This document shows, in pieces, positions 1 to 33,126 of a stretch of DNA of 54,792 nt; position 1 is the first letter of the stretch; every line of letters starts with the position of its first letter. The position numbers and the translations under genes are program-made. The notes beneath the pieces are model-generated. The model had not been told where the DNA came from. It was given only the letters and a program-made list of their open reading frames with translations, and ran no database searches. Source of the stretch: Clostridia bacterium (GTDB lineage Bacteria; Bacillota; Clostridia; RGIG7378); assembly GCA_045588325.1 (NCBI GenBank), contig JAZNEA010000093.1, positions 1 to 54,792 of the forward strand, written 5' to 3'.

Positions 1-28
1 CAAACTTGTTGAAATTTCAACAAGTTTG
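1..28. promoter_or_regulatory. Perfect 28-bp palindrome, probable MarR operator
   Basis: CAAACTTGTTGAAA/TTTCAACAAGTTTG is an exact inverted repeat 45 bp upstream of the marR ATG; it may extend left of the window. Confidence 0.65.
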
Positions 29-73
29 TGCTATGTTTATCCACGTCACCGGCAAAACCTATGTGGAGAGGCT

Positions 74-535: not shown

Positions 536-575
536 AAACGCCCCCAATTCTGCTTTTAGAATTAGGGGCGTATTT
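536..575. terminator. Bidirectional intrinsic terminator between convergent marR and the PP2C-like gene
   Basis: Stem CGCCCCCAATTCT / AGAATTAGGGGCG with A/T-rich flanks. Confidence 0.7.
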
Positions 576-602: not shown

Positions 603-1412
603 CTACACCTCAAAGACAATGGCACTGGCATCGTCGTGAACCTTAAAGCGCACATTTTCGTTGAGCAGGTTGTCCTGTTCCTCAGCCCGGCGCAACTCAT
701 CGCAGGCCTGGGATAGCGGATAATCCATATCCTCCAGCAGATGATCCACCAGGTCAAATCCGTCGGTAAAGGCCACAATGTGGTGGATGTTCTCCGTAGG
801 CAGGGTGATTACGCTGTCGGGCAGACATGGAGTCATGCCAAAGGACAAAATGCGATATCCAGAGGGGGTGTTCATGTTGCTGCGGTGTAGTGCCAGCATG
901 GATCGAATCTCGGGTGCTTGCACCAATTCGCTGATACTCTTGCCTGTGGATTGACGCATGGTCTCCATGGCGGAGAAAACGCGCTGGTCATAGACAGAGA
1001 CCTCCGGATCATATACGCACAATGGTAGGGCCTGATCCTTAAAATAGATGTTGGCGCAGCAGTCGCCGATGGTCACAATCTGCAAATTGGCTCCATCTGT
1101 GTGGAAGAAAAGTCCCGATGCAGAAGGGAAAAACTTTGGGGCCACAGTGGCGTCGTCCTTGACAGCCTCCTTGAACTCGTCAAACAGCACCTCCAGAGTC
1201 CTGTTGATGGCGTGGCAAATATCCCCGGTGGCGGTGATGGCCTCTGCATACAGGCGGCTAAACCTGTCCACGAACCAGGTTGCATCCAGGCTAGAGGGAG
1301 ATAGGCTGGTGGAGCCGTCCAGAACCAAAACATCCTGGGGACCGTGCCAAATCTTGTCTTCGTTTTTAATCCCGTCGCCAGAATGGCTGAGGAGTTGCAA
1401 AACCTTAATCAT
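603..1412 (-). CDS. PP2C (PPM)-like phosphatase domain protein
   Basis: Metal-binding motifs NED, VLDGST, IGDC, FTDGF and C-terminal HDDAS; ATG overlaps the TIR gene stop (ATGA). Confidence 0.75.
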   Translation of the reverse strand: MIKVLQLLSHSGDGIKNEDKIWHGPQDVLVLDGSTSLSPSSLDATWFVDRFSRLYAEAITATGDICHAINRTLEVLFDEFKEAVKDDATVAPKFFPSASGLFFHTDGANLQIVTIGDCCANIYFKDQALPLCVYDPEVSVYDQRVFSAMETMRQSTGKSISELVQAPEIRSMLALHRSNMNTPSGYRILSFGMTPCLPDSVITLPTENIHHIVAFTDGFDLVDHLLEDMDYPLSQACDELRRAEEQDNLLNENVRFKVHDDASAIVFEV

Positions 1413-2620
1413 CTGTTAGTCTGACGGCGCTGAACCTCTTGGTCCAATCCGCTCATTATCTCCTTAATAGTGTCTATATCTGTCATATCATACTTGAACA
1501 CATGCTGATATCTGTCCAGTTGCATGCTCATACCGGGGCTGAGAGTAGTCTCCTCCAGGAATACGCAAATGGGGGTCTTGCCGTGCTTGATGGCGTGCGA
1601 AATCTCCATACGGACGTAATCCCTGTTAACCGAGGTGGGGGAGATAAAGAACAGCACCTTGGAGCAATCAATAATGCGCTGTGCTATATATTCTGTGAAC
1701 TCTACTGCGCTGGGTATGCCCTTTTTGTCGAACCATAGGCGCACACCACGGTCAGATAGCTTTTGCAAAAGGCTAAAGACAGCGGCCTTGTCATCATGGG
1801 CGTAGCTGACAAAGAGGTACGGGTCGGTGCCGTTGTAGGGAATCAAATCCGTTGACTCCGGCTCCTGTGCGATCTGAACCTGAGGAAGCAAAGACTCCAA
1901 CTGCTGCAGGCGCTCCTGTAGCTGATGGAACTTGGCCGATGATGCGATCATGGCCTTGTGGTACAAGTATGTTGCAATGCGTAGCGCATAGTCGGAGCGG
2001 GAGGAGTTCTCATAGCTGATGGCCTGATTGATGTTGTCCAGGGCCTGAGAATAATTGTGCCTGAAACTCAGTATGCGAGCCTTAGTACAGTAGTACTTGG
2101 CGTAAGAGGGGTCCAGGTCGATGGCCCGGTTTACTGCATCCAAAGCCTTGTCGTACCAATCATCTGCCACGGTGTTATCAGCAGACAGTCCGCCTTTTTC
2201 GCAAACAGATGCAAACACATCGGCAAACAGGTGGACAAAGCCAGCGTTGTCGCTAAACAGGCAGGAATCTTTGTAGGTGGTTCTCAGCAGCTCAGAATAA
2301 CTGTAGAAACCATCGCTCTCAATGTAAAACAGCGCGCGCAGATGGTCAAAAGTAATATGCAGTTCAAAGCGTATGGCGTTGGCCTCAATGAGGTCACTGA
2401 GCTTTTGGTAATCCTTGACGTGGCGGTAGTAGATGTTGAGACAATAGAATGCGTTGTAGCATGTGTCGCCGGGGTAAATGCCATCCACAACCTCCAGCAG
2501 TAGTCGCTCCAGCTCGGAGGAGCCGTTGGACATGACAAACTTGGTGGCACCCAGCTCATATTGGCGAGTGCGCTCATTGGGAAGACTCTCTAAAAATTGT
2601 AAAAGCTCAGTCAAGCACAT
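1409..2620 (-). CDS. TPR-like helical N-terminus + C-terminal TIR (TIR_2) domain protein
   Basis: TIR motifs YLFVSYAHDD, VRLWFD, FFISPTSV and RMEISHA (candidate catalytic Glu); TPR-like ALDAVNRAIDLDPSYAKYYCTKARIL; ATG 2620 follows AGGAGG. Confidence 0.85.
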   Translation of the reverse strand: MCLTELLQFLESLPNERTRQYELGATKFVMSNGSSELERLLLEVVDGIYPGDTCYNAFYCLNIYYRHVKDYQKLSDLIEANAIRFELHITFDHLRALFYIESDGFYSYSELLRTTYKDSCLFSDNAGFVHLFADVFASVCEKGGLSADNTVADDWYDKALDAVNRAIDLDPSYAKYYCTKARILSFRHNYSQALDNINQAISYENSSRSDYALRIATYLYHKAMIASSAKFHQLQERLQQLESLLPQVQIAQEPESTDLIPYNGTDPYLFVSYAHDDKAAVFSLLQKLSDRGVRLWFDKKGIPSAVEFTEYIAQRIIDCSKVLFFISPTSVNRDYVRMEISHAIKHGKTPICVFLEETTLSPGMSMQLDRYQHVFKYDMTDIDTIKEIMSGLDQEVQRRQTNR

Positions 2621-2643
2621 AGGGAACACCTCCTGTTCACCAA

Positions 2644-3858
2644 TTACTTTACCAAATTCAGTACGATGTTTTCAACCACCTGACAGGCCTTGTCCAGGGA
2701 CTCGATGGGCAAAAATTCAAAGCGTGAGTGGAAGTTCTCGCCGCCTGTAAACAGGTTGGGGCAAGGCAGACCCTCGTAAGAAAGGCGTGCGCCGTCGGTG
2801 CCTCCGCGGATGGGCTGGATCAGGGGAGTGATGCCGGCCTGCTCCATGGCCTCCACAGCGCGATCAATAATGTACATGTGGTCGGCAATCTTCTCTCTCA
2901 TGTTGTAATAGGAGTCGGCGATTGTCACCTTGCAGGTGCCGGGGCCATACTTTGCGTTAATCTTGTTGGCGCACTCTGCAAACAGTGCCTTTTTGGCCTG
3001 GAATTTATCCATATGATGATCTCGGATAATGTATGATGCCTTGGCGTGCTCGGTGGCTCCGCTAATGCCGGTGAGGTGGAAGAATCCCTGATAGCCCTCT
3101 GTGGTAGAGGGTGTCTGGTCAGCTGGCAACATGGAGGCAAACTCTGTGGCAACCAATGCGGCGTTAATCATCTTGTCCTTGGCAGAACCGGGGTGAATAG
3201 AAACGCCGGCGAATTCTGCCACCGCAGAAGCACCGTTAAAGTTCTCGTATTCCAGCTCGCCCACTGCTCCGCCGTCTACGGTGTAGGCATACTGGCAGCC
3301 AAACCCCTGCACATCGAAAAGGTCTGCACCTCTGCCAATCTCCTCGTCGGGGGTAAAGCCGATGCGCACCTTGCCGTGAGGCTTGCCGGATCTAATGATG
3401 TTCTCAATAGCAGTGATAATTGCGGCAATGCCGGCCTTGTCGTCCGCTCCTAGCAGTGTGGTGCCGTCGGTAACAATAAGGTGGTTGCCCACGTACTTGG
3501 ACAGGCAGGGGTAGTCCTTCTCCCTGAGATAGATGCCCCTGTCCTCGTTGAGCAGGATGTCCTCGCCAAAATACTCCACAATGGATGTGTGGATGGGGTA
3601 GTCAGCTGCCTCGTCGGAGGTGTCCATGTGGGCGATGAGACCGATGGTGGGGGCATCTGTGTCACAGTTGGCCTCCAAAGTGGCGTACAGATAGCCGTTG
3701 GCATCCAGAGTCACCTCTGTAAGGCCCAGCTCCTGCAGCTCAGCAACCAGATATTTGCCTAACTCCAGCTGCTTGGCAGTGGAGGGGCAGGTGGTGCTTG
3801 TCTCGTCGGACATGGTTGGAAAAGATACATATTTTAAAAATCTCTCGTATGCTTTCAT
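2644..3858 (-). CDS. pepT: Peptidase T (tripeptide aminopeptidase, M20B)
   Basis: AHMDTS, LGADDKAG, FTPDEEIGRG, YTVDGG, IRGGTDGARLS, HSRFEF motifs. Confidence 0.95.
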   Translation of the reverse strand: MKAYERFLKYVSFPTMSDETSTTCPSTAKQLELGKYLVAELQELGLTEVTLDANGYLYATLEANCDTDAPTIGLIAHMDTSDEAADYPIHTSIVEYFGEDILLNEDRGIYLREKDYPCLSKYVGNHLIVTDGTTLLGADDKAGIAAIITAIENIIRSGKPHGKVRIGFTPDEEIGRGADLFDVQGFGCQYAYTVDGGAVGELEYENFNGASAVAEFAGVSIHPGSAKDKMINAALVATEFASMLPADQTPSTTEGYQGFFHLTGISGATEHAKASYIIRDHHMDKFQAKKALFAECANKINAKYGPGTCKVTIADSYYNMREKIADHMYIIDRAVEAMEQAGITPLIQPIRGGTDGARLSYEGLPCPNLFTGGENFHSRFEFLPIESLDKACQVVENIVLNLVK

Positions 3859-6698: not shown

Positions 6699-6774
6699 TG
6701 GTGGAGATTAGGGGAATCGAACCCCTTACCTCCTGCGTGCAAAGCAGGCGCTCTACCAGGTGAGCTAAACCCCC
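6699..6774 (-). tRNA. tRNA-Ala(TGC)
   Basis: Full cloverleaf GGGGGTTTAGCTCA...CCTGC-TTTGCAC-GCAGG...TTCGATT...CTCCACCA; G3:U70 pair; CCA encoded. Confidence 0.95.
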
Positions 6775-6936: not shown

Positions 6937-7734
6937 TTACCCCAGCAGGGTGTCCAGCAACATCATAGCAGCAAACCCAAGGGTTACGCCTACGGTTCCC
7001 ATATACGAATGGGGCCTGGCCTGAGCCTGAGGGATTAGTTCCTCGGCGACCACGTAGATCATGGCGCCTGCGGCAAATGCCAATATGTAGGGCAGAGCAG
7101 GTGCAATCAGCCAAGTCAGCACCAAAGTGACCACAGCCCCTATGGGTTCTACGATCCCTGACAAAACGCCCATCAGGAAACCTCGCCATTTGCCCTTTCC
7201 CGCAGCAGCTAATGGCATTGAAATAATAGCCCCCTCCGGGAAGTTTTGCACAGATATGCCGATGACAAGAGACATGGCCGCAGCTGTGGTGACGGCATCC
7301 CCGCGAATCAGCCCTGCCAGAGTTACGCCAACAGCCATTCCTTCTGGCAGATTGTGCAGGGTCACAGCCAGCATAACCATGTTGTTCTTACTGGCCTGAG
7401 GCCTGCCGTCCGACAAACAATAGCGTCGCTCCAGTTTGCGGATCAGCACGTCTAATACCAGCAGGAATAGAGCTCCGGCCAGGAATCCTGTAACCGCCGG
7501 GATACTGGGCACCACTCCGGCCTCTTCTGCCATTTCCAGTGCTGGCAACAGCAGAGACCAAACGGATGCAGCAATCATAACACCAGCGGCAAAGCCTGAC
7601 AGGGTCTTGTTGAGAATATGGTTTAGGGAGCTCTTGAGAAAAAGCGCCATGGCTGATCCCAGGATGGTTCCAATCCAGGGTAAAAATATGCCCAGGATAA
7701 CAACAAAATCTTCCTTCATCTTACCTCGCGCCAC
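6937..7734 (-). CDS. ZIP family divalent metal transporter (ZupT/GufA-like)
   Basis: GFAAGVMIAAS, TLHNLPEGMAVG, QNFPEG, AFAAGAMIYVVAEELIP; start may be 7719. Confidence 0.92.
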   Translation of the reverse strand: MARGKMKEDFVVILGIFLPWIGTILGSAMALFLKSSLNHILNKTLSGFAAGVMIAASVWSLLLPALEMAEEAGVVPSIPAVTGFLAGALFLLVLDVLIRKLERRYCLSDGRPQASKNNMVMLAVTLHNLPEGMAVGVTLAGLIRGDAVTTAAAMSLVIGISVQNFPEGAIISMPLAAAGKGKWRGFLMGVLSGIVEPIGAVVTLVLTWLIAPALPYILAFAAGAMIYVVAEELIPQAQARPHSYMGTVGVTLGFAAMMLLDTLLG

Positions 7735-7791
7735 GAGGCGCAGTATGTGTCTGCTTTAAACTATGCATATCCGGCAGATTGTGACAATAAT

Positions 7792-7818
7792 AAAAGAGGA
7801 CTCATTTCTGAGTCCTCT
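7792..7818 (-). terminator. Terminator of the sugar ABC ATPase gene
   Basis: AGAGGACTCA-TTTC-TGAGTCCTCT stem with a U tract on the minus strand. Confidence 0.75.
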
Positions 7819-7866
7819 CTATCTGTATTTGTTCCCTTTAAAAATGCTACTGATCTGAAAATTTGC

Positions 7867-8985
7867 TTAGTGGCAAATTGTAACCTCTGTTTCTTTGTCG
7901 AAGATGTGCATTTTCTTAATATCGAACGCAACTGTGATGTTGTCCTCTGGACGAGCCTTGGAGCTAGGATGTACCTTAGCTGTTACGCTGTTGCCGTCAA
8001 TGATGAGGTAAAGCAGTGTCTCTGCACCAAGTCTCTCAACAACCTCAACCTTGGCGTTAACTGTTCCAAGGGGATTGGCGTCGATGATCTCAGCCTGATC
8101 GGAAATGTTCTCAGGACGAATACCGATGTAAACTTCCTTACCCATGTAGCCGCCAGCCTTGATAGCCTCTACCTTGTCCTCGGGGAGAACGATCTGTGTT
8201 CTCTTACCGAACTCAGCAACTACGCGACCCTCGTCGTCCTTCTCAATACGAGCAACGATGAAGTTCATCTGAGGGCTGCCGATGAATCCTGCAACGAACA
8301 GGTTGTCGGGTCTGTTGTAAAGTACTACGGGACTCTCAACCTGCTGGATGATACCGTCCTTCATAACTACGATACGAGTACCCATTGTCATAGCCTCTGT
8401 CTGGTCGTGAGTAACGTAGATGAATGTTGTCTGCAACTTCTGGTGAAGCTTAGTAATCTCAGTTCTCATCTGAACACGGAGCTTAGCGTCCAAGTTAGAG
8501 AGAGGCTCATCCATCAAGAATACCTTAGGCTCACGAACGATAGCACGTCAAAGAGCAACTCTCTGTCTCTGACCTCCGGACAGAGCCATAGGCTTTCTGT
8601 TCAGCAAGTGCTCGATGCCGAGGATGCGAGCTGCCTCCTCAACACGTCTCTTAATCTCATCCTTGGGAGTCTTACGAAGCTTAAGACCAAAGGCCATGTT
8701 GTCGAATACTGTCATGTGAGGATACAGAGCGTAGTTCTGGAATACCATTGCGATATCTCTGTCCTTGGGTGCGATATCATTAACAACTCTGTCGCCAATC
8801 TTAACCTCGCCCTCGGAAATCTCTTCCAAACCAGCGATCATTCTGAGAGTAGTTGACTTTCCGCAACCGGAAGGTCCTACGAAAATAACAAATTCCTTAT
8901 CTGCGATATTGAGGTTGAAGTCCTTAACAGCAAGAACGTTGCCTGCATATCTCTTGTATACGTTAATAAGTTGTACACTTGCCAT
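7867..8985 (-). pseudogene. Multiple-sugar ABC transporter ATPase (MsmK/MsmX/UgpC-like) interrupted by an in-frame TGA at 8548-8550
   Basis: Walker A GPSGCGKS, signature [27 protein letters not shown]-terminal TOBE region; one frame throughout; ATG 8985 behind GGAGG. May be a sequencing error rather than a true pseudogene. Confidence 0.8.
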
Positions 8986-9176
8986 GAGTGTTACCTCCAT
9001 CAATAAAACTGTAACCATGATAGCAAAACTTACAGAGATATTCATCGGTAAACTGTCATGAAATAAACTCTCTAGTTTTGTTAGATTTGCATAATCTTGT
9101 GAAAAGAGCAAAAAAATGTGAAAAAATTCAAGAAAATGCAACAAAAGGCCATTTTTTGAACACAAAACGGCGAGCT

Positions 9177-9193
9177 TTGTGCAATTTGCACAA
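9177..9193. promoter_or_regulatory. Palindromic operator in the divergent ATPase/cdaR promoter region
   Basis: TTGTGCAA-T-TTGCACAA, 4 bp before a TATAAT (9198-9203); 13/17 degenerate copy at 9078-9094. Confidence 0.55.
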
Positions 9194-9302
9194 CCAGTAT
9201 AATTTATGTTATACTGTACGCGTAATCGACGACAAAAATGAGTCGTAGGATATTTTGGACGGGATGTTAGCTCATCCCAGACGTAGCCGGAGGAAAACGA
9301 AC

Positions 9303-16463: not shown

Positions 16464-16540
16464 GGCCCGGTAGTTCAGTTGGTTAGAATGCCAGCCTGTC
16501 ACGCTGGAGGTCGTGGGTTCGAGCCCCATCCGGGTCGCCA
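16464..16540 (+). tRNA. tRNA-Asp(GTC)
   Basis: GGCCCGGTAGTTCAGTTGGTTAGAATGCCAGCCTGTCACGCTGG...TTCGAG...GGGTCGCCA. Confidence 0.95.
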
Positions 16541-16548
16541 CTATTTTT

Positions 16549-16624
16549 GGTCAGATAGCTCAGTTGGTAGAGCAGTGGACTGAAAATCCACGTGTCGTTA
16601 GTTCAATTCTAATTCTGACCACCA
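16549..16624 (+). tRNA. tRNA-Phe(GAA)
   Basis: GGTCAGATAGCTCAG...GTGGA-CTGAAAA-TCCAC...TTCAAT...CTGACCACCA. Confidence 0.93.
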
Positions 16625-16626
16625 AT

Positions 16627-16701
16627 GCGGGTTTAACTCAGTGGTAGAGTGTTACCTTGCCAAGGTAAAAGTCGCGAGTCCGAATCTCGTAACCCGCTCC
16701 A
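16627..16701 (+). tRNA. tRNA-Gly(GCC)
   Basis: GCGGGTTTAACTCAG...TTACC-TTGCCAA-GGTAA...AACCCGCTCCA; T-loop reads TCCGAAT. Confidence 0.9.
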
Positions 16702-29255: not shown

Positions 29256-29788
29256 ATGAGCCAAAAATTAAAGTTAGTTCTCAGGATTGTAGCTAATGCT
29301 ATTGTACTGGTTGTATTGGTACTGGCGTTTCTGCTGCATGGTGTCAAGCTGTTTGGCCTGACACCTTACTCTGTGTTATCCCCATCGATGCAGTCGGTGT
29401 ATCCTACAGGCTCCCTGATATACGTCAAGGATGTGGAGCCAGCCACATTAGAGGTGCAGGATGTTATTACATTCAGGATGGGGAATGGCAGCATAGCCAC
29501 CCATCGTATTGTGGAGATAGTCCCCGACGAGGGGGATGGAGAGGTTGTACGGTTCCGCACTAAGGGCGATGAGAACGAGACTGCAGACGGGCCACTGGTG
29601 GACTATAGCAGCGTCGTTGGCAAACCTGTGTTCTGCATACCGAAATTAGGTTTTCTAGCCACCTATATGACCACCACTTCGGGAAATACGCGACAATCAC
29701 GGTGGCAATGGGAATTGTCCTGTTGGAACTGCTGATAAACATGCTTATAGGCGACAAGGATAAACACAAAAAGGAGGAAGTGACATGA
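29256..29788 (+). CDS. sipW: Signal peptidase I, SipW (ER-type) family, with an apparent -1 frameshift near 29681-29687
   Basis: VLSPSM (Ser), ITF, THRI (His), TKGDEN; the -1 frame restores GKYATITVAMGIVLLELLINML TM and a TGA overlapping the next ATG. Confidence 0.8.
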
Positions 29789-31638
29789 GAGGTTCAAGGG
29801 CTTTGATCCTGGCAATATGCACAGTGCTGCTGATTACGGTATCCGTTTTGGGCACGATTGCGTGGCTGACCAGCCAAGATGCAGTTGTAAATACATTCTC
29901 TGTTGGCAAGGTCAAAATTACGCTGGATGAGGCTGCAGTCAATGCGGACGGCTCATTGGCCGCAGGAGGTCGAGTCAAGAGCAATGCTTATCACCTGCTA
30001 CCAGGTGGTACATATATCAAGGACCCCACACTGACTGTCAAGGCAGACAGCGAGACAGCATATGTTCGCTTGTTGCTCACCATAAATTGCCTGGAGGAGC
30101 TGGACGCCATATTTGCTCCTGAAGGTGTTGATTTGCAGACTATTTTTAATGGCTACGATGAAAGTGCGTGGATTTATGTGGAGACCGCCAGAGACACAAC
30201 CAACAACACTGTTACTTACGAGTTCCGCTACAAGGAGCTTGTGACAAAGGCCAGCGACGATACAGTATTGGAGCCCCTGTTCCAGTCTATAACAATCCCT
30301 GGAACGTTTACCTCGGAGGACATGGCGTCCACAGAGGGCATGGCAGCCAACCTGCTGATAGGCAAGACGGTGGAACATCCCCTTGGAGAGGCATACGTAA
30401 TCCCTGCAAACATCTCCTTTGACTTTAAGGTGGATCTGGGATCATACTACGCAAATGCCACCATCGAGACGTCAGGTGGAACAGTGGAGGCCGACGAGAA
30501 CGGATCGATTACCGTTTCGGTAAAGCCAGGACAAGATTTTACAGTAGAGAACATTGACGCAGGCACCAAGGTTACGGTTACCGAGCTCAGGACATATGGC
30601 CCAGGGTTCTCCGCCAAGGATGGCGTGCTTGTCAGAGAGGGAGTAGTAGGGCAAGATGGCAGTCTGAGACTTGATTTTGTAAACATCTACGCTCCTGCAG
30701 CAGTGCAGTTTACCAATGCAACAGTCGTTGGCGTCAAGGAGCTGGAGGGCAGACCCTGGCAAGAGGGAGACACATTCTCATTTGCCCTTGAACAGGAGAC
30801 CAGTGAGGGAGTGTGGACGCAGCTGGGCACAAGGTCAGTTGCATACGACGCACAGGACCCGGAGTTTAATAAGTTTGATTTTAGCGATATTGTTCGCGAG
30901 ATTACATTTGACCAGATAGGTACATACAGCTTTCGCATGACGGAGGAGGTTGGCGACCTGGAGGATGTGGACTACGATAGGAGTGTCAACACATTTGCCG
31001 TAGAGGTTACGGATGCGGACATGGATGGCCAGTTAGAAATCGGTAAGGTTACAGCGGCTCAAAATGCAGAGGCCACAGAGGTTAATGGTGAGCACGTGAT
31101 TTCTGTAGTGTTTAACAACACATTTATCCCAGCGACTCCGACACCAGAGGACATAACGGTTAATGTAGAGGTAAACAAGACAGTCGAAAATATGGGAGCC
31201 TCTGCCATTGGGCCAGAGGGATTCCAGTTCGTGCTGGAGGATGTGGCAACAGGCGAAAAGCTAATGCTCCAGACGAGCAGTGATGGTAAGGTAATCTTTG
31301 ACCTAGATTTCACTGCAGGAGATGTGGGCCGTACATACACGTACAAGTTGTTCGAGGTCAACACAGGAGTAAAGGGAGTTACCTACGACACCACCGTCCA
31401 CGAGATAGCCATATCCATTTCCCTTGGAGAGGACGGCAATTTGGATGCAATGCTTAAACTAAACGGCAGCGCAACAGACAGGCTGGTGGCGGCCTTCGAA
31501 AATACTTATGAGGTAGAAAATCCCGTGGAGCCTCCTACTGGAGACGTGGAGAATGGCGGATTCTGGTTTATCATGATGATGATCAGCGGTGCGGCATGCG
31601 TAGTCCTGTTCGCGCTGGACAAGAAATACGCCAGGTAG
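29785..31638 (+). CDS. SipW-type signal peptide protein with pilin-like/Spy0128-like Ig domains and a C-terminal sorting signal
   Basis: GTIAWLTSQDAVVNTFSVG, KDPTLTV, repeated K.LEGR...FSF / ITF...GTY / YTYKLFE...GVTYD domains; EPPTGD + TM + KKYAR. Confidence 0.8.
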   Translation: MRGSRALILAICTVLLITVSVLGTIAWLTSQDAVVNTFSVGKVKITLDEAAVNADGSLAAGGRVKSNAYHLLPGGTYIKDPTLTVKADSETAYVRLLLTINCLEELDAIFAPEGVDLQTIFNGYDESAWIYVETARDTTNNTVTYEFRYKELVTKASDDTVLEPLFQSITIPGTFTSEDMASTEGMAANLLIGKTVEHPLGEAYVIPANISFDFKVDLGSYYANATIETSGGTVEADENGSITVSVKPGQDFTVENIDAGTKVTVTELRTYGPGFSAKDGVLVREGVVGQDGSLRLDFVNIYAPAAVQFTNATVVGVKELEGRPWQEGDTFSFALEQETSEGVWTQLGTRSVAYDAQDPEFNKFDFSDIVREITFDQIGTYSFRMTEEVGDLEDVDYDRSVNTFAVEVTDADMDGQLEIGKVTAAQNAEATEVNGEHVISVVFNNTFIPATPTPEDITVNVEVNKTVENMGASAIGPEGFQFVLEDVATGEKLMLQTSSDGKVIFDLDFTAGDVGRTYTYKLFEVNTGVKGVTYDTTVHEIAISISLGEDGNLDAMLKLNGSATDRLVAAFENTYEVENPVEPPTGDVENGGFWFIMMMISGAACVVLFALDKKYAR

Positions 31639-33052: not shown

Positions 33053-33126
<74 letters not shown>

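What the first reader, a model, noticed from the sequence alone, without database searches (positions are those of the whole stretch)
603..2620. Coupled TPR-TIR + PP2C-like gene pair: candidate defence/signalling system
Seen: a TPR-like helical protein ending in a short coiled coil and a TIR domain with an intact Glu motif (RMEISHA). Its stop overlaps the start of a PP2C-like gene (ATGA), and the pair has its own AGGAGG RBS and a downstream terminator. Established: bacterial TIR domains are NADases or signal generators in anti-phage systems (Thoeris, TIR effectors of CBASS/Pycsar/Avs), and TPR regions act as sensors in Avs proteins. I do not recognise a TIR + PP2C pairing among named systems. 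Inference: a sensor-effector with a phosphatase that resets or modulates it, or that processes a nucleotide product.
Basis: partly seen in the sequence, partly recalled or inferred. Interest (0 to 1): 0.78.

Follow-up and report, generated by a model that had tools for sequence, protein, structure and literature searches.

The report
TPR-TIR plus PP2C gene pair
A helical-repeat protein carrying an NAD-cleaving TIR domain is always followed by, or fused to, a PP2C-type phosphatase; the pair looks like an undescribed bacterial self-killing or anti-phage switch, but its function is untested.

Summary
Gene A (1409..2620, minus strand, 403 aa) is a TPR-like solenoid, a long helix and a TIR domain whose catalytic Glu is invariant. 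Gene B (603..1412, 269 aa) is a PP2C-fold protein with every metal-binding Asp invariant. The genes overlap by ATGA, have an AGGAGG ribosome-binding site and end at a strong terminator.

Comparative evidence shows a real two-gene module:
- Every A-type gene with enough flanking sequence is followed by, or fused to, a B-type gene. One weak relative is the exception.
- Fusion arose at least twice, and the two parts co-evolve (Mantel r=0.70).

The TIR form is the minority. Most relatives carry a highly conserved three-helix membrane module in place of the TIR. The conserved core is therefore TPR domain plus PP2C, with a swappable effector. That argues against the phosphatase processing a TIR nucleotide product.

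B-like genes also occur alone, whereas A almost never lacks B, which fits an antidote role for B. No kinase is linked.

No PADLOC, NCBIfam or literature match to a described system was found. Evidence for a defence role is suggestive only: some loci sit in defence islands or a conjugative element, while many, including this window, have housekeeping flanks.

Best reading: an undescribed abortive-infection or toxin-antitoxin-like module restrained by a phosphatase.

The parts
2646..2675 (-). Weak sigma-70-like promoter match (TTGAAA-18-TAAAGT with an extended -10 TG) inside the 3' end of pepT. The pair may equally be read through from pepT, since the intergenic gap is only 23 nt.
   Evidence: 9 of 12 matches; such sites are only about 2.5x more frequent here than in shuffled sequence
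2629..2634 (-). Shine-Dalgarno AGGAGG, 8 nt upstream of the gene A ATG
   Evidence: sequence read directly
1409..2620 (-). Gene A, 403 aa: TPR-like solenoid, long helix, TIR domain
1886..2620 (-). N-terminal TPR-like helical domain (residues 1-245), shared by all architectures. Signature motif YAKYYCTKARI (residues 173-183). Includes the long helix 211-244 (1889..1990).
1436..1819 (-). TIR domain (residues ~268-395). Invariant F270, S272, Y273, W296, D298, R337, E339.
1604..1606 (-). Codon of the putative catalytic Glu339 (RMEISHA)
1409..1412 (-). ATGA overlap: the stop of A and the start of B. This implies translational coupling, and no separate SD precedes B.
603..1412 (-). Gene B, 269 aa, PP2C/PPM-fold protein. 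Invariant D19 (1356..1358), D32 (1317..1319), D117 (1062..1064), D217 (762..764) and D260/D261 (630..635).
538..571 (-). Intrinsic terminator after gene B (14-bp stem, T-rich tail). It lies between B and the convergent marR gene.

Best explanation
The pair is a self-contained two-protein module of the abortive-infection or toxin-antitoxin type.

Protein A is a cytoplasmic TPR-like scaffold joined by a long helix to a death effector. Here the effector is a TIR NADase. In most relatives it is a conserved three-helix membrane module.

Protein B is a metal-dependent PP2C-family phosphatase made in fixed ratio with A through translational coupling. It binds A and keeps A off, most likely by continually removing a phosphate (or a related phospho-linked mark) from A's conserved N-domain, or simply by sequestering it.

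A trigger tips the balance. Candidates are a phage or host kinase, a phage protein that blocks or titrates B, or a ligand of the TPR groove. A is then released and oligomerises through its helix and TPR region. The TIR domains assemble composite active sites and hydrolyse NAD+, stopping growth of the infected cell.

Shown by analysis:
- domain identities and folds;
- conservation of the TIR Glu and of all PP2C metal ligands;
- near-obligate A-to-B linkage, independent fusions and co-evolution;
- TIR/TM interchange;
- solo B genes;
- absence of a linked kinase.

Inferred:
- NADase and phosphatase activities;
- physical A-B binding;
- the sign of regulation (B as inhibitor);
- the trigger;
- the anti-phage role.
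For: 1. Module reality.
- In 27 reference-genome loci plus metagenome loci, every A-type gene with enough sequence is immediately followed by, usually overlapping, a PP2C-like gene, or is fused to one.
- Fusions in the order Nhel-TIR-PP2C occur in two separate clades: Saccharofermentans L016, and Bacteroidaceae L024/L041.
- Distance matrices of the two parts correlate: r=0.70, with 0 of 2000 permutations reaching that value.

2. Effector logic.
- The position after the long helix holds either a TIR or a 3-TM module.
- TM1 (NLEFLGFFAGIISFTIGSI) is the most conserved stretch of the 3-TM proteins, so it is not a mere anchor.
- A third form has the TIR N-terminal to the helical domain.
- The TIR's nearest relatives are NADase effectors: SARM1 TIR (TMt 0.84, rmsd 2.3), SPARTA TIR, Cat1, SAVED-TIR and Aga-TIR.
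- The catalytic Glu is invariant.

3. B is an enzyme.
- D19, D32, D117, D217 and D260/D261 are invariant in 29 partners that share as little as 18% identity.
- In the profile alignment, D19, D32, D117 and D217 pair with tPphA D18, D34, D119 and D193. That these tPphA residues are metal ligands is from my own knowledge, except Asp119.
- Asp119 is the ligand of the essential third metal and is lost in SpoIIE (PMC3517971).
- The fold matches PstP, Stp1 and tPphA.

4. B is antidote-like.
- A almost never lacks B, but B-like genes occur alone: P0228, P0230 and P0236.
- The genes are translationally coupled.
- B diverges faster than the A N-domain.

5. Conflict context in some loci.
- Cargo of a relaxase/T4CP element.
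- Between PDC-S01 and AbiEi/AbiEii.
- Next to a TIR-NACHT-like-TPR protein and a NUDIX gene.
- Next to a SIR2_2 gene and a transposase.
- Patchy cross-phylum distribution: Bacillota, Bacteroidota, Actinomycetota and Haloplasmataceae.
Against: - No experiment exists for any member.
- Defence-island signal is weak overall. In 122 flanking genes from 22 loci, most hits are housekeeping. The apparent AriA/GajA/mad hits are generic ABC ATPases.
- The window's own flanks are marR, pepT, pheA-like, GH1 and ZIP. The pair has host-like composition and has kept this site across three lineages at 75-79% identity.
- No relatives were found in IMG/VR by motif scan or in PLSDB. The one 'phage' record has no phage genes.
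- No kinase is linked: 0 Hanks-signature ORFs in 32 loci, 529 kb. The phospho-substrate is therefore hypothetical.
- The sign of regulation is inferred only from the co-occurrence asymmetry, which rests on four sampled B-side loci.
- The AF2 fusion model gave no usable inter-domain information (pTM 0.66, no PAE).
Confidence: 0.5

Rival explanations
1. Same module, opposite sign. B is the activator or sensor. In the resting state A is held off, for example phosphorylated by a housekeeping kinase. Infection or stress switches on the PP2C, which dephosphorylates A and releases the effector, as SpoIIE and RsbU do in partner-switching circuits.
For: - PP2C phosphatases are the activating step in the SpoIIE/RsbU/RsbP pathways (established knowledge; SpoIIE structure paper).
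- B evolves faster than A's N-domain, as expected of a component that meets variable triggers.
- The catalytic site is fully conserved.
Against: - Solo B genes exist, whereas A without B is almost never seen. This fits an antidote better than an activator.
- B is a bare 260-290-aa catalytic domain with no added sensor domain.
- No STAS or anti-sigma-type partner and no kinase is nearby.
Confidence: 0.2
2. This is not an immune system. It is a toxin-antitoxin or addiction module, or a stress-triggered growth-arrest module, that stabilises the DNA carrying it or responds to physiological signals, with no role against phages.
For: - Two-gene, translationally coupled architecture.
- Presence on a conjugative or mobilisable element.
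- Many loci, including the window, sit among housekeeping genes with host-like composition.
- Orphan B genes resemble orphan antitoxins.
Against: - Swapping a TIR for a TM effector on one sensor scaffold is typical of phage-defence systems such as CBASS, Pycsar, Thoeris and retrons (established knowledge; Pucsar abstract).
- Several loci are embedded among AbiE, PDC-S01, TIR-NLR-like and SIR2 genes.
- The two roles are not mutually exclusive.
Confidence: 0.2
3. It is an ordinary Ser/Thr phospho-signalling module. A membrane-anchored (3-TM) or TIR-scaffolded TPR adaptor recruits a PP2C phosphatase to cellular substrates. The TIR serves as a protein-interaction domain, not an NADase.
For: - The dominant form is membrane-anchored.
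- TPR domains commonly act as adaptors for phosphatases such as PP5 (weak PP5 TPR matches).
- The genomic contexts are housekeeping.
Against: - The TIR catalytic Glu and surrounding motifs are invariant.
- TM1 carries a strongly conserved polar and glycine-rich motif, the most conserved segment of the protein. That is unlike a passive anchor.
- Patchy cross-phylum distribution and carriage on a mobile element.
- The TIR's closest relatives are NADase effectors.
Confidence: 0.12
4. It is a Thoeris-like signalling system. The TIR makes a nucleotide signal, and the PP2C-fold protein is either its effector or the enzyme that degrades or processes it. The second option is the first reader's alternative.
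For: - Weak ThsB_TIR similarity.
- PP2C-fold enzymes can cleave phosphodiester-linked nucleotides, as the SidD de-AMPylase does (PMC3656104, listed).
Against: - The same PP2C partner accompanies the 3-TM variants, which have no nucleotide-producing domain.
- The 3-TM loci examined, the 11 in the co-evolution set, form one clade in both trees, so PP2C linkage goes with the N-domain and not with the TIR.
- B has no SLOG, Macro, SAVED or CARF-type ligand domain.
- No ThsA-like gene lies in the window.
Confidence: 0.06

Closest known systems
Pycsar / CBASS / Pucsar effector sets (one sensor module fused alternatively to TIR or TM effectors)
   Same: A single conserved regulatory domain carries either a TIR NADase or a multi-TM membrane effector at the same position. 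The TIR is closest to effector-type NADase TIRs (Pucsar abstract).
   Different: There is no cyclase, and no cNMP-binding, SAVED or CARF domain. The regulatory domain is TPR-like, and the obligatory partner is a PP2C phosphatase, not a nucleotide synthase.
Thoeris (ThsB TIR + ThsA)
   Same: Bacterial TIR with a conserved catalytic Glu. Weak ThsB_TIR profile hits.
   Different: There is no ThsA (SIR2/SLOG, Macro or TM-SLOG). The TIR is fused to a TPR-like domain, and it is interchangeable with a TM module. That points to an effector rather than a signal generator.
SARM1 (ARM repeat - SAM - TIR NADase)
   Same: Helical-repeat regulatory domain in cis with an NADase-type TIR. SARM1 is the best whole-chain fold match (E=3.9e-5), and its TIR superposes at rmsd 2.3 A.
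   Different: This is analogy, not homology of the repeat region. There is no SAM domain, and nothing suggests NMN/NAD sensing. Regulation here is proposed to go through a separate phosphatase.
TerY-P triad and KKP (kinase-kinase-phosphatase): phage-defence modules containing a PP2C
   Same: A PP2C-family phosphatase in a conflict system (Kaur et al. 2020; KKP abstract).
   Different: Those systems encode their own Ser/Thr kinase(s), and TerY-P also a vWA protein. Here no kinase or vWA gene is part of the module, and a TIR or TM death effector is present.
Partner-switching PP2Cs (SpoIIE, RsbU/RsbP)
   Same: A bacterial PPM-fold phosphatase dedicated to a single partner protein. The fold matches include a SpoIIE-family protein.
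   Different: There is no STAS-domain substrate and no kinase or anti-sigma factor. The third-metal Asp is kept, whereas SpoIIE has lost it. The partner is a TPR-effector protein.
BcTir/Tpr (Bacillus cereus TIR gene + glycosidase-TPR gene; bioRxiv 10.1101/2023.05.26.542521)
   Same: An anti-phage two-gene operon that combines TIR and TPR elements and depletes NAD+.
   Different: There the TIR and the TPR are on different proteins, the NADase is the N-terminal domain of the TPR protein, and there is no PP2C.
PADLOC candidates PDC-M21 (component C) and PDC-S66
   Same: Weak partial profile similarity. B matches PDC-M21C (E=1e-3; 2e-5 for a homologue). The helix plus TIR start of A matches PDC-S66 (E=3e-7; 1e-9 for P0054).
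   Different: The matches cover only 80-135 residues. PDC-M21 is a three-gene cassette, and no match to its A or B component was reported for either window protein or for the nine homologues scanned. PDC-S66 is a single-gene candidate. The 3-TM variants and their partners match nothing in PADLOC.

Membership tests
TIR domain superfamily (Pfam TIR_2, PF13676), NADase type | Profile match above the curated threshold | tested here: met
   62.4 bits against a cut-off of 28, E=7e-17
TIR domain superfamily (Pfam TIR_2, PF13676), NADase type | Flavodoxin-like TIR fold | tested here: met
   AF2 pLDDT above 90 in this region. SARM1 TIR TMt 0.84, rmsd 2.3 A; SPARTA TIR rmsd 2.3 A.
TIR domain superfamily (Pfam TIR_2, PF13676), NADase type | Conserved catalytic glutamate | tested here: met
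   E339 is invariant in 48 sequences. It aligns with the Glu of Cat1 and 7uxr.
TIR domain superfamily (Pfam TIR_2, PF13676), NADase type | NAD+ hydrolase activity | not testable with these tools
   Needs an enzyme assay.
PPM/PP2C phosphatases | Profile match above the curated threshold | tested here: met
   PP2C_2 at 34.2 bits against a cut-off of 24 for gene B. Divergent partners fall just below the cut-off, at 21-24 bits.
PPM/PP2C phosphatases | PP2C beta-sandwich fold | tested here: met
   Tested on the fused homologue P0025, not on gene B itself. Best matches PstP, Stp1 and tPphA; TMt 0.5-0.62, E down to 1e-5.
PPM/PP2C phosphatases | Metal-binding Asp residues for M1/M2, and the M3 Asp | tested here: met
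   D19, D32, D117, D217 and D260/D261 are invariant in 29 partners. D19, D32, D117 and D217 pair with tPphA D18, D34, D119 and D193. Role of Asp119: PMC3517971.
PPM/PP2C phosphatases | Conserved phosphate-binding Arg before the (N/Q)(E/Q)D motif | tested here: inconclusive
   K or R sits at -3 in many TIR-type partners, but the position varies in TM-type partners.
PPM/PP2C phosphatases | Phospho-Ser/Thr phosphatase activity | not testable with these tools
   Needs an assay. The substrate is unknown.
TPR repeat proteins | 34-residue repeat signature, or a TPR-like helical solenoid | tested here: met
   Single Pfam TPR hits are below cut-off. The N-domain profile matches STI1/SGT/CHIP TPRs over residues 140-220 (E=3.5e-5). 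Fold matches include MamA and CTPR. Residues 1-135 are helical without a TPR sequence signature.
Thoeris | ThsA-type effector gene (SIR2/SLOG, Macro or TM) next to the TIR gene | tested here: not met
   The window's neighbours are PP2C, marR and pepT. No ThsA-type effector gene lies immediately next to the pair in the homologous loci; in L044 a SIR2_2 protein with a weak ThsA-profile match (E=1.6e-7) lies about 2.6 kb upstream, separated by other genes.
Avs / bacterial NLR (STAND) sensors | Central STAND NTPase (NACHT/NB-ARC) domain | tested here: not met
   No P-loop domain in A or B by Pfam, NCBIfam or PADLOC. The model is solenoid plus TIR only.
TerY-P / KKP phospho-defence modules | Cognate Ser/Thr kinase (and vWA for TerY-P) in the operon | tested here: not met
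   No kinase in the annotated neighbourhoods. Zero Hanks-signature ORFs in 32 loci.
CBASS / Pycsar | Nucleotide cyclase gene, and a ligand-sensing domain on the effector | tested here: not met
   Absent from the Pfam and PADLOC results for A, B and their neighbours.
Type II toxin-antitoxin / Abi pair | Toxin neutralised by a co-expressed cognate protein | not testable with these tools
   Only indirect support: translational coupling, and the asymmetry between 'A always with B' and solo B genes.
PADLOC PDC-M21 / PDC-S66 candidates | Full-length matches to all components | tested here: not met
   Only partial, weak hits to M21C and S66. The M21 cassette has three families.

The most novel reading that the evidence does not exclude
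This would be a kinase-less phospho-surveillance immune system. A dedicated PP2C phosphatase continuously erases a phospho-mark, or another phospho-linked mark, on a TPR-scaffolded death effector. The system then fires when a phage brings its own protein kinase or nucleotidyl-transferase, or when a phage inhibits the phosphatase. That would be a sensing principle (guarding of phosphorylation homeostasis) not described for bacterial immunity. It would be used by hundreds of protein clusters across at least three phyla, with interchangeable NADase and membrane effectors.
Probability: 0.2. Interest if true: 0.85.

Novelty: new variant of a known kind. Interest (0 to 1): 0.68.

Why it matters
If the module is a defence or abortive-infection system, it adds a family with a new regulatory logic: a PP2C phosphatase with no cognate kinase controlling a TIR NADase or a membrane effector. 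The family is sizeable, at 244 clusters at 50% identity with E<=1e-30 and 820 with E<=1e-10, and it spans Bacillota, Bacteroidota and Actinomycetota.

It would link Ser/Thr phospho-signalling, so far seen in defence only in kinase-bearing systems such as Stk2, TerY-P and KKP, to NAD+-depletion immunity.

The natural fusions and the three effector arrangements give ready-made constructs for testing. The conserved 3-TM module and the YAKYYCTKAR TPR-like domain are themselves uncharacterised.

Solo PP2C-like relatives next to Hachiman or NADAR genes raise the question of orphan antidotes or anti-defence use.

If instead it is a plain toxin-antitoxin or signalling module, it is still an undescribed and widely distributed pairing.

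Tried and rejected
1. Known-system match. PADLOC, NCBIfam and Pfam scans of A, B, the fusions, the TM variants and their partners gave only partial TIR/PP2C-level hits.

2. Literature. Six searches and the text or supplements of five papers found no description. BcTir/Tpr, TerY-P, KKP and the component-modularity systems differ.

3. 'Empty site' test. PepT relatives from metagenomes were at most 63% identical and shared no synteny, so the test is inconclusive.

4. Phage or plasmid carriage. There were no IMG/VR motif hits and no PLSDB hits. The single hit in the phage collection, MT836178.1, is an UNVERIFIED contig with bacterial-type neighbours.

5. Defence-island enrichment by batch scan. 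I first read it as AriA/GajA/mad hits, then traced those hits to generic double-ABC ATPases and discounted them.

6. Composition anomaly. None was found.

7. Fold search of the fusion model against viral structures returned only generic giant-virus PP2Cs.

8. SLATT or other known TM-effector families for the 3-TM module gave no Pfam match.

9. Inter-domain contacts in the AF2 fusion model could not be examined, because the tool returns no coordinates or PAE.

10. Direct sequence search of gene B against the PDB found nothing. Only the family profile reached tPphA and PstP.
Full report
**1. The observation**

Two minus-strand ORFs occupy 603..2629.

Start of gene A. The mechanical ORF starts at a GTG (2629), but that codon lies inside the AGGAGG site (2629..2634). 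The ATG at 2620 follows AGGAGG by 8 nt, and the database copy of the protein is 403 aa. Gene A is therefore 1409..2620.

Junction with gene B. Its TGA overlaps the ATG of gene B (603..1412) as ATGA. No separate Shine-Dalgarno precedes B, so the two are translationally coupled.

Ends of the operon. A 14-bp-stem terminator with a T-tract follows B at 571..538. The upstream gene, pepT, ends 23 nt before A. A weak promoter-like site lies at 2675..2646, so the pair may have its own promoter or be read through.

**2. The proteins**

Gene A.
- It matches Pfam TIR_2 (E=7e-17) and gives several sub-threshold TPR hits.
- With 48 homologues as the alignment, AlphaFold2 gives a confident model (pLDDT 91.6). 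It has eleven helices forming a solenoid (residues 1-203), one long helix (211-244), a disordered linker, and an alpha/beta domain (269-390).
- Foldseek matches TPR proteins (MamA, consensus TPRs, SPY/OGT, LapB) for the solenoid. It matches the NADase TIRs of SARM1 (TMt 0.84, rmsd 2.3 A) and SPARTA for the C-terminal domain. SARM1 as a whole chain is the top match, which is an architectural analogy.
- A profile of the N-domain alone hits the STI1/Hop, SGT and CHIP TPR domains over residues 140-220.
- The Glu of VRMEISHA (E339) is invariant in 48 sequences, as are F270, S272, Y273, W296, D298 and R337. It aligns with the equivalent Glu of the CRISPR-associated NADase Cat1 and of the 7uxr TIR.

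Gene B.
- It matches Pfam PP2C_2 above threshold.
- A fused homologue, modelled at pLDDT 91.1, has PstP, Stp1 and tPphA as its best structural matches for this part.
- Across 29 partners that share as little as 18% identity, D19, D32, G116, D117, D217, G218, D260 and D261 are invariant. So are the family-specific N181, G185, Y186 and D247.
- In a profile alignment to tPphA, D19, D32, D117 and D217 pair with D18, D34, D119 and D193.
- Asp119 binds the third metal needed for activity and is replaced in SpoIIE (PMC3517971).
- B therefore looks like a catalytically competent, though divergent, PPM enzyme. A profile of the family reaches solved PP2Cs only at E~1e-3.

**3. The pair is a module**

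Homologues of A include ~690-aa proteins in which the N-domain, TIR and PP2C are fused in that order.

I scanned one genome per GTDB species and found 27 loci. I then mapped three home-made HMMs (N-domain, TIR, PP2C-like) onto all six frames. In every locus that extends far enough, the N-domain gene is directly followed by, usually overlapping, a PP2C-like gene, or is fused to one. The only exception is the weakest relative (L038, N-domain E=1e-20).

One apparent exception in metagenome data, L043, was a gene-calling artefact.

The distance matrices of the N-domain and of the PP2C part correlate over 28 pairs: r=0.70, with 0 of 2000 permutations as high. UPGMA clustering of the two parts gives largely congruent groupings of the same three sets of loci. 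Fusions occur in two of those clades, so fusion happened at least twice. PP2C diverges faster (mean distance 0.74 against 0.64).

**4. The TIR is only one of several effectors**

About half of the genome loci have no TIR. After the long helix they carry three hydrophobic helices instead. Another form has a divergent TIR N-terminal to the helical domain.

An exhaustive HMMER search with the N-domain profile found 244 clusters (50% identity) at E<=1e-30 and 820 at E<=1e-10. Of 135 new top representatives:
- 95 are N-domain plus 2-4 TM helices;
- 15 are N-domain plus TIR;
- 8 are N-extension plus N-domain;
- 4 are PP2C fusions (three N-domain-TIR-PP2C, one with an N-terminal extension);
- 1 is an N-terminal extension plus N-domain plus 3 TM helices;
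- 2 carry an unclassified C-terminal extension;
- 10 are short.

In 84 3-TM representatives, TM1 (NLEFLGFFAGIISFTIGSI) is the most conserved stretch of the protein. It is slightly more conserved than the YAKYYCTK motif. That speaks for a functional membrane module rather than an anchor.

The partners of TM variants are PP2C-like with the same invariant residues.

The conserved core is thus TPR-like domain plus PP2C, and the TIR or TM part is a swappable output. This disfavours the idea that the phosphatase works on a TIR-made nucleotide.

**5. The view from the B side**

A profile search with the 29 partners found further ~270-aa proteins. Of four contexts examined:
- One (P0234) follows a 416-aa N-domain-TIR gene.
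- Three (P0228, P0230, P0236) are solo genes with no A-type ORF in any frame.

A therefore almost never occurs without B, but B-like genes occur without A. This is the pattern expected if A is dangerous without B. The sample is small, and all the solos belong to one PP2C clade.

**6. Context**

The window is ordinary chromosome: marR, pepT, prephenate dehydratase, GH1, ZIP, tRNAs, an Opp-type transporter, a pilin-like gene and MBOAT. The pair's composition matches its neighbours. The same pepT-side synteny is kept in relatives at 75-79% identity.

Elsewhere the pair occurs in varied settings:
- It is cargo of a relaxase/T4CP element seen in many samples.
- It lies between PDC-S01 and AbiEi/AbiEii.
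- It lies beside a TIR-NPHP3_N-TPR protein and a NUDIX gene.
- It lies beside a SIR2_2 gene and a transposase.

A batch scan of 122 flanking genes was dominated by housekeeping families, however. Its apparent OLD/Gabija/PARIS-type hits proved to be generic ABC ATPases.

No relatives were found in IMG/VR or PLSDB. The one 'phage' record carrying the pair has bacterial-type neighbours.

No Hanks-type kinase signature occurs in 32 loci, 529 kb.

The distribution is patchy across Bacillota, Bacteroidota, Actinomycetota and Haloplasmataceae.

**7. Mechanism**

The best-supported reading is an abortive-infection or toxin-antitoxin-like module:
- A is a TPR-scaffolded effector that must oligomerise to act. 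TIR NADases need assembled active sites, and TM modules need to multimerise. Both statements rest on established knowledge of SARM1, SPARTA, Cat1 and of the Pycsar and CBASS effectors.
- B is a stoichiometric partner that restrains A, probably through its catalytic activity.
- A trigger that phosphorylates A, blocks B or occupies the TPR groove releases the effector.

The steps after 'A and B form a functional unit, and the C-terminal part is the output' are inference.

Rivals are:
- the opposite sign of regulation, as in SpoIIE or RsbU;
- a non-immune addiction or stress module;
- plain phospho-signalling;
- a Thoeris-like signalling system.

Their evidence is listed in the rival-explanations section.

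**8. Comparison with known systems, and novelty**

The module works like the TIR/TM effector sets of Pycsar and CBASS, and in architecture like SARM1. It is not a member of any of these:
- Thoeris (no ThsA);
- Avs/NLR (no NTPase);
- CBASS/Pycsar (no cyclase or ligand domain);
- TerY-P/KKP (no kinase or vWA);
- BcTir/Tpr (different proteins).

PADLOC v2, NCBIfam 2026 and the searchable literature hold no description. DefenseFinder could not be run.

I rate it a new variant of a known kind: a modular two-gene effector system with an unprecedented phosphatase partner and an undescribed TPR-like sensor domain. Interest is 0.68. The comparative evidence for a real, sizeable, undescribed module is strong. 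Function and mechanism are untested, and the defence context is only partial.

Noticed in passing
window 1..28: A perfect 28-bp palindrome (CAAACTTGTTGA-AATT-TCAACAAGTTTG) sits just upstream of the marR gene and overlaps a promoter-like site (9..37). It is probably the MarR autoregulatory operator. It lies at the very edge of the window.
   Followed up: no
L126 674..4769; L125 6001..7692: Solo PP2C-like genes (P0228) of the same clade as some partners occur without any A-type gene. One lies directly after a Hachiman HamB helicase (E=1e-240). Another lies next to a NADAR-domain gene. A ~90%-similar copy (P0230) sits in an alphaproteobacterial MAG in a different context. These could be orphan antidotes or anti-defence genes.
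   Followed up: partly
L043 6364..12317; L127 1..3453: Giant Tubulin_2 (~1100 aa) and vWA (~1000 aa) genes lie within a few kb of two unrelated family members: a high-GC 3-TM variant and a Bacteroidales TIR variant. This suggests a recurrent neighbouring conflict system.
   Followed up: no
L133 (MT836178.1) 7220..9300: A GenBank record labelled 'UNVERIFIED: Bacteriophage sp.' carries the full A+B pair. Its other genes are a 1865-aa subtilase with Big_2 domains and a ComEA-like HHH protein, and there are no phage hallmark genes. It is probably bacterial DNA in a virome.
   Followed up: yes
L007-L011: The most widespread homologue (P0054, indexed in 115 blocks of the contig collection) rides in a relaxase/T4CP/MobC element beside ThyX and dUTPase genes. 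In two versions a Card1-type (CARF) endonuclease gene lies upstream.
   Followed up: partly
L024 69..7805: Upstream of the Bacteroidaceae fusion lie a second, unrelated 455-aa TIR protein and a 2122-aa protein with no PADLOC match.
   Followed up: no
22 homologous loci (alignment A6): RyR-domain proteins occur 3 times among 122 flanking genes. Phage-type integrases occur twice.
   Followed up: no
P0060 (451 aa): An N-domain-TIR protein ends in ~50 residues that resemble the start of a clade-2 PP2C ('KIIEHFCEGKTG'). It is apparently a truncated or frameshifted fusion.
   Followed up: no
window 6699..6774, 16464..16701, 33053..33126; 29785..31638: Five tRNA genes: Ala; an Asp-Phe-Gly cluster; Cys. 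There is also a 617-aa Spy0128/FctA-type isopeptide pilin-like gene. Together with the rest of the window, these mark an ordinary Gram-positive chromosomal region with no defence island.
   Followed up: partly
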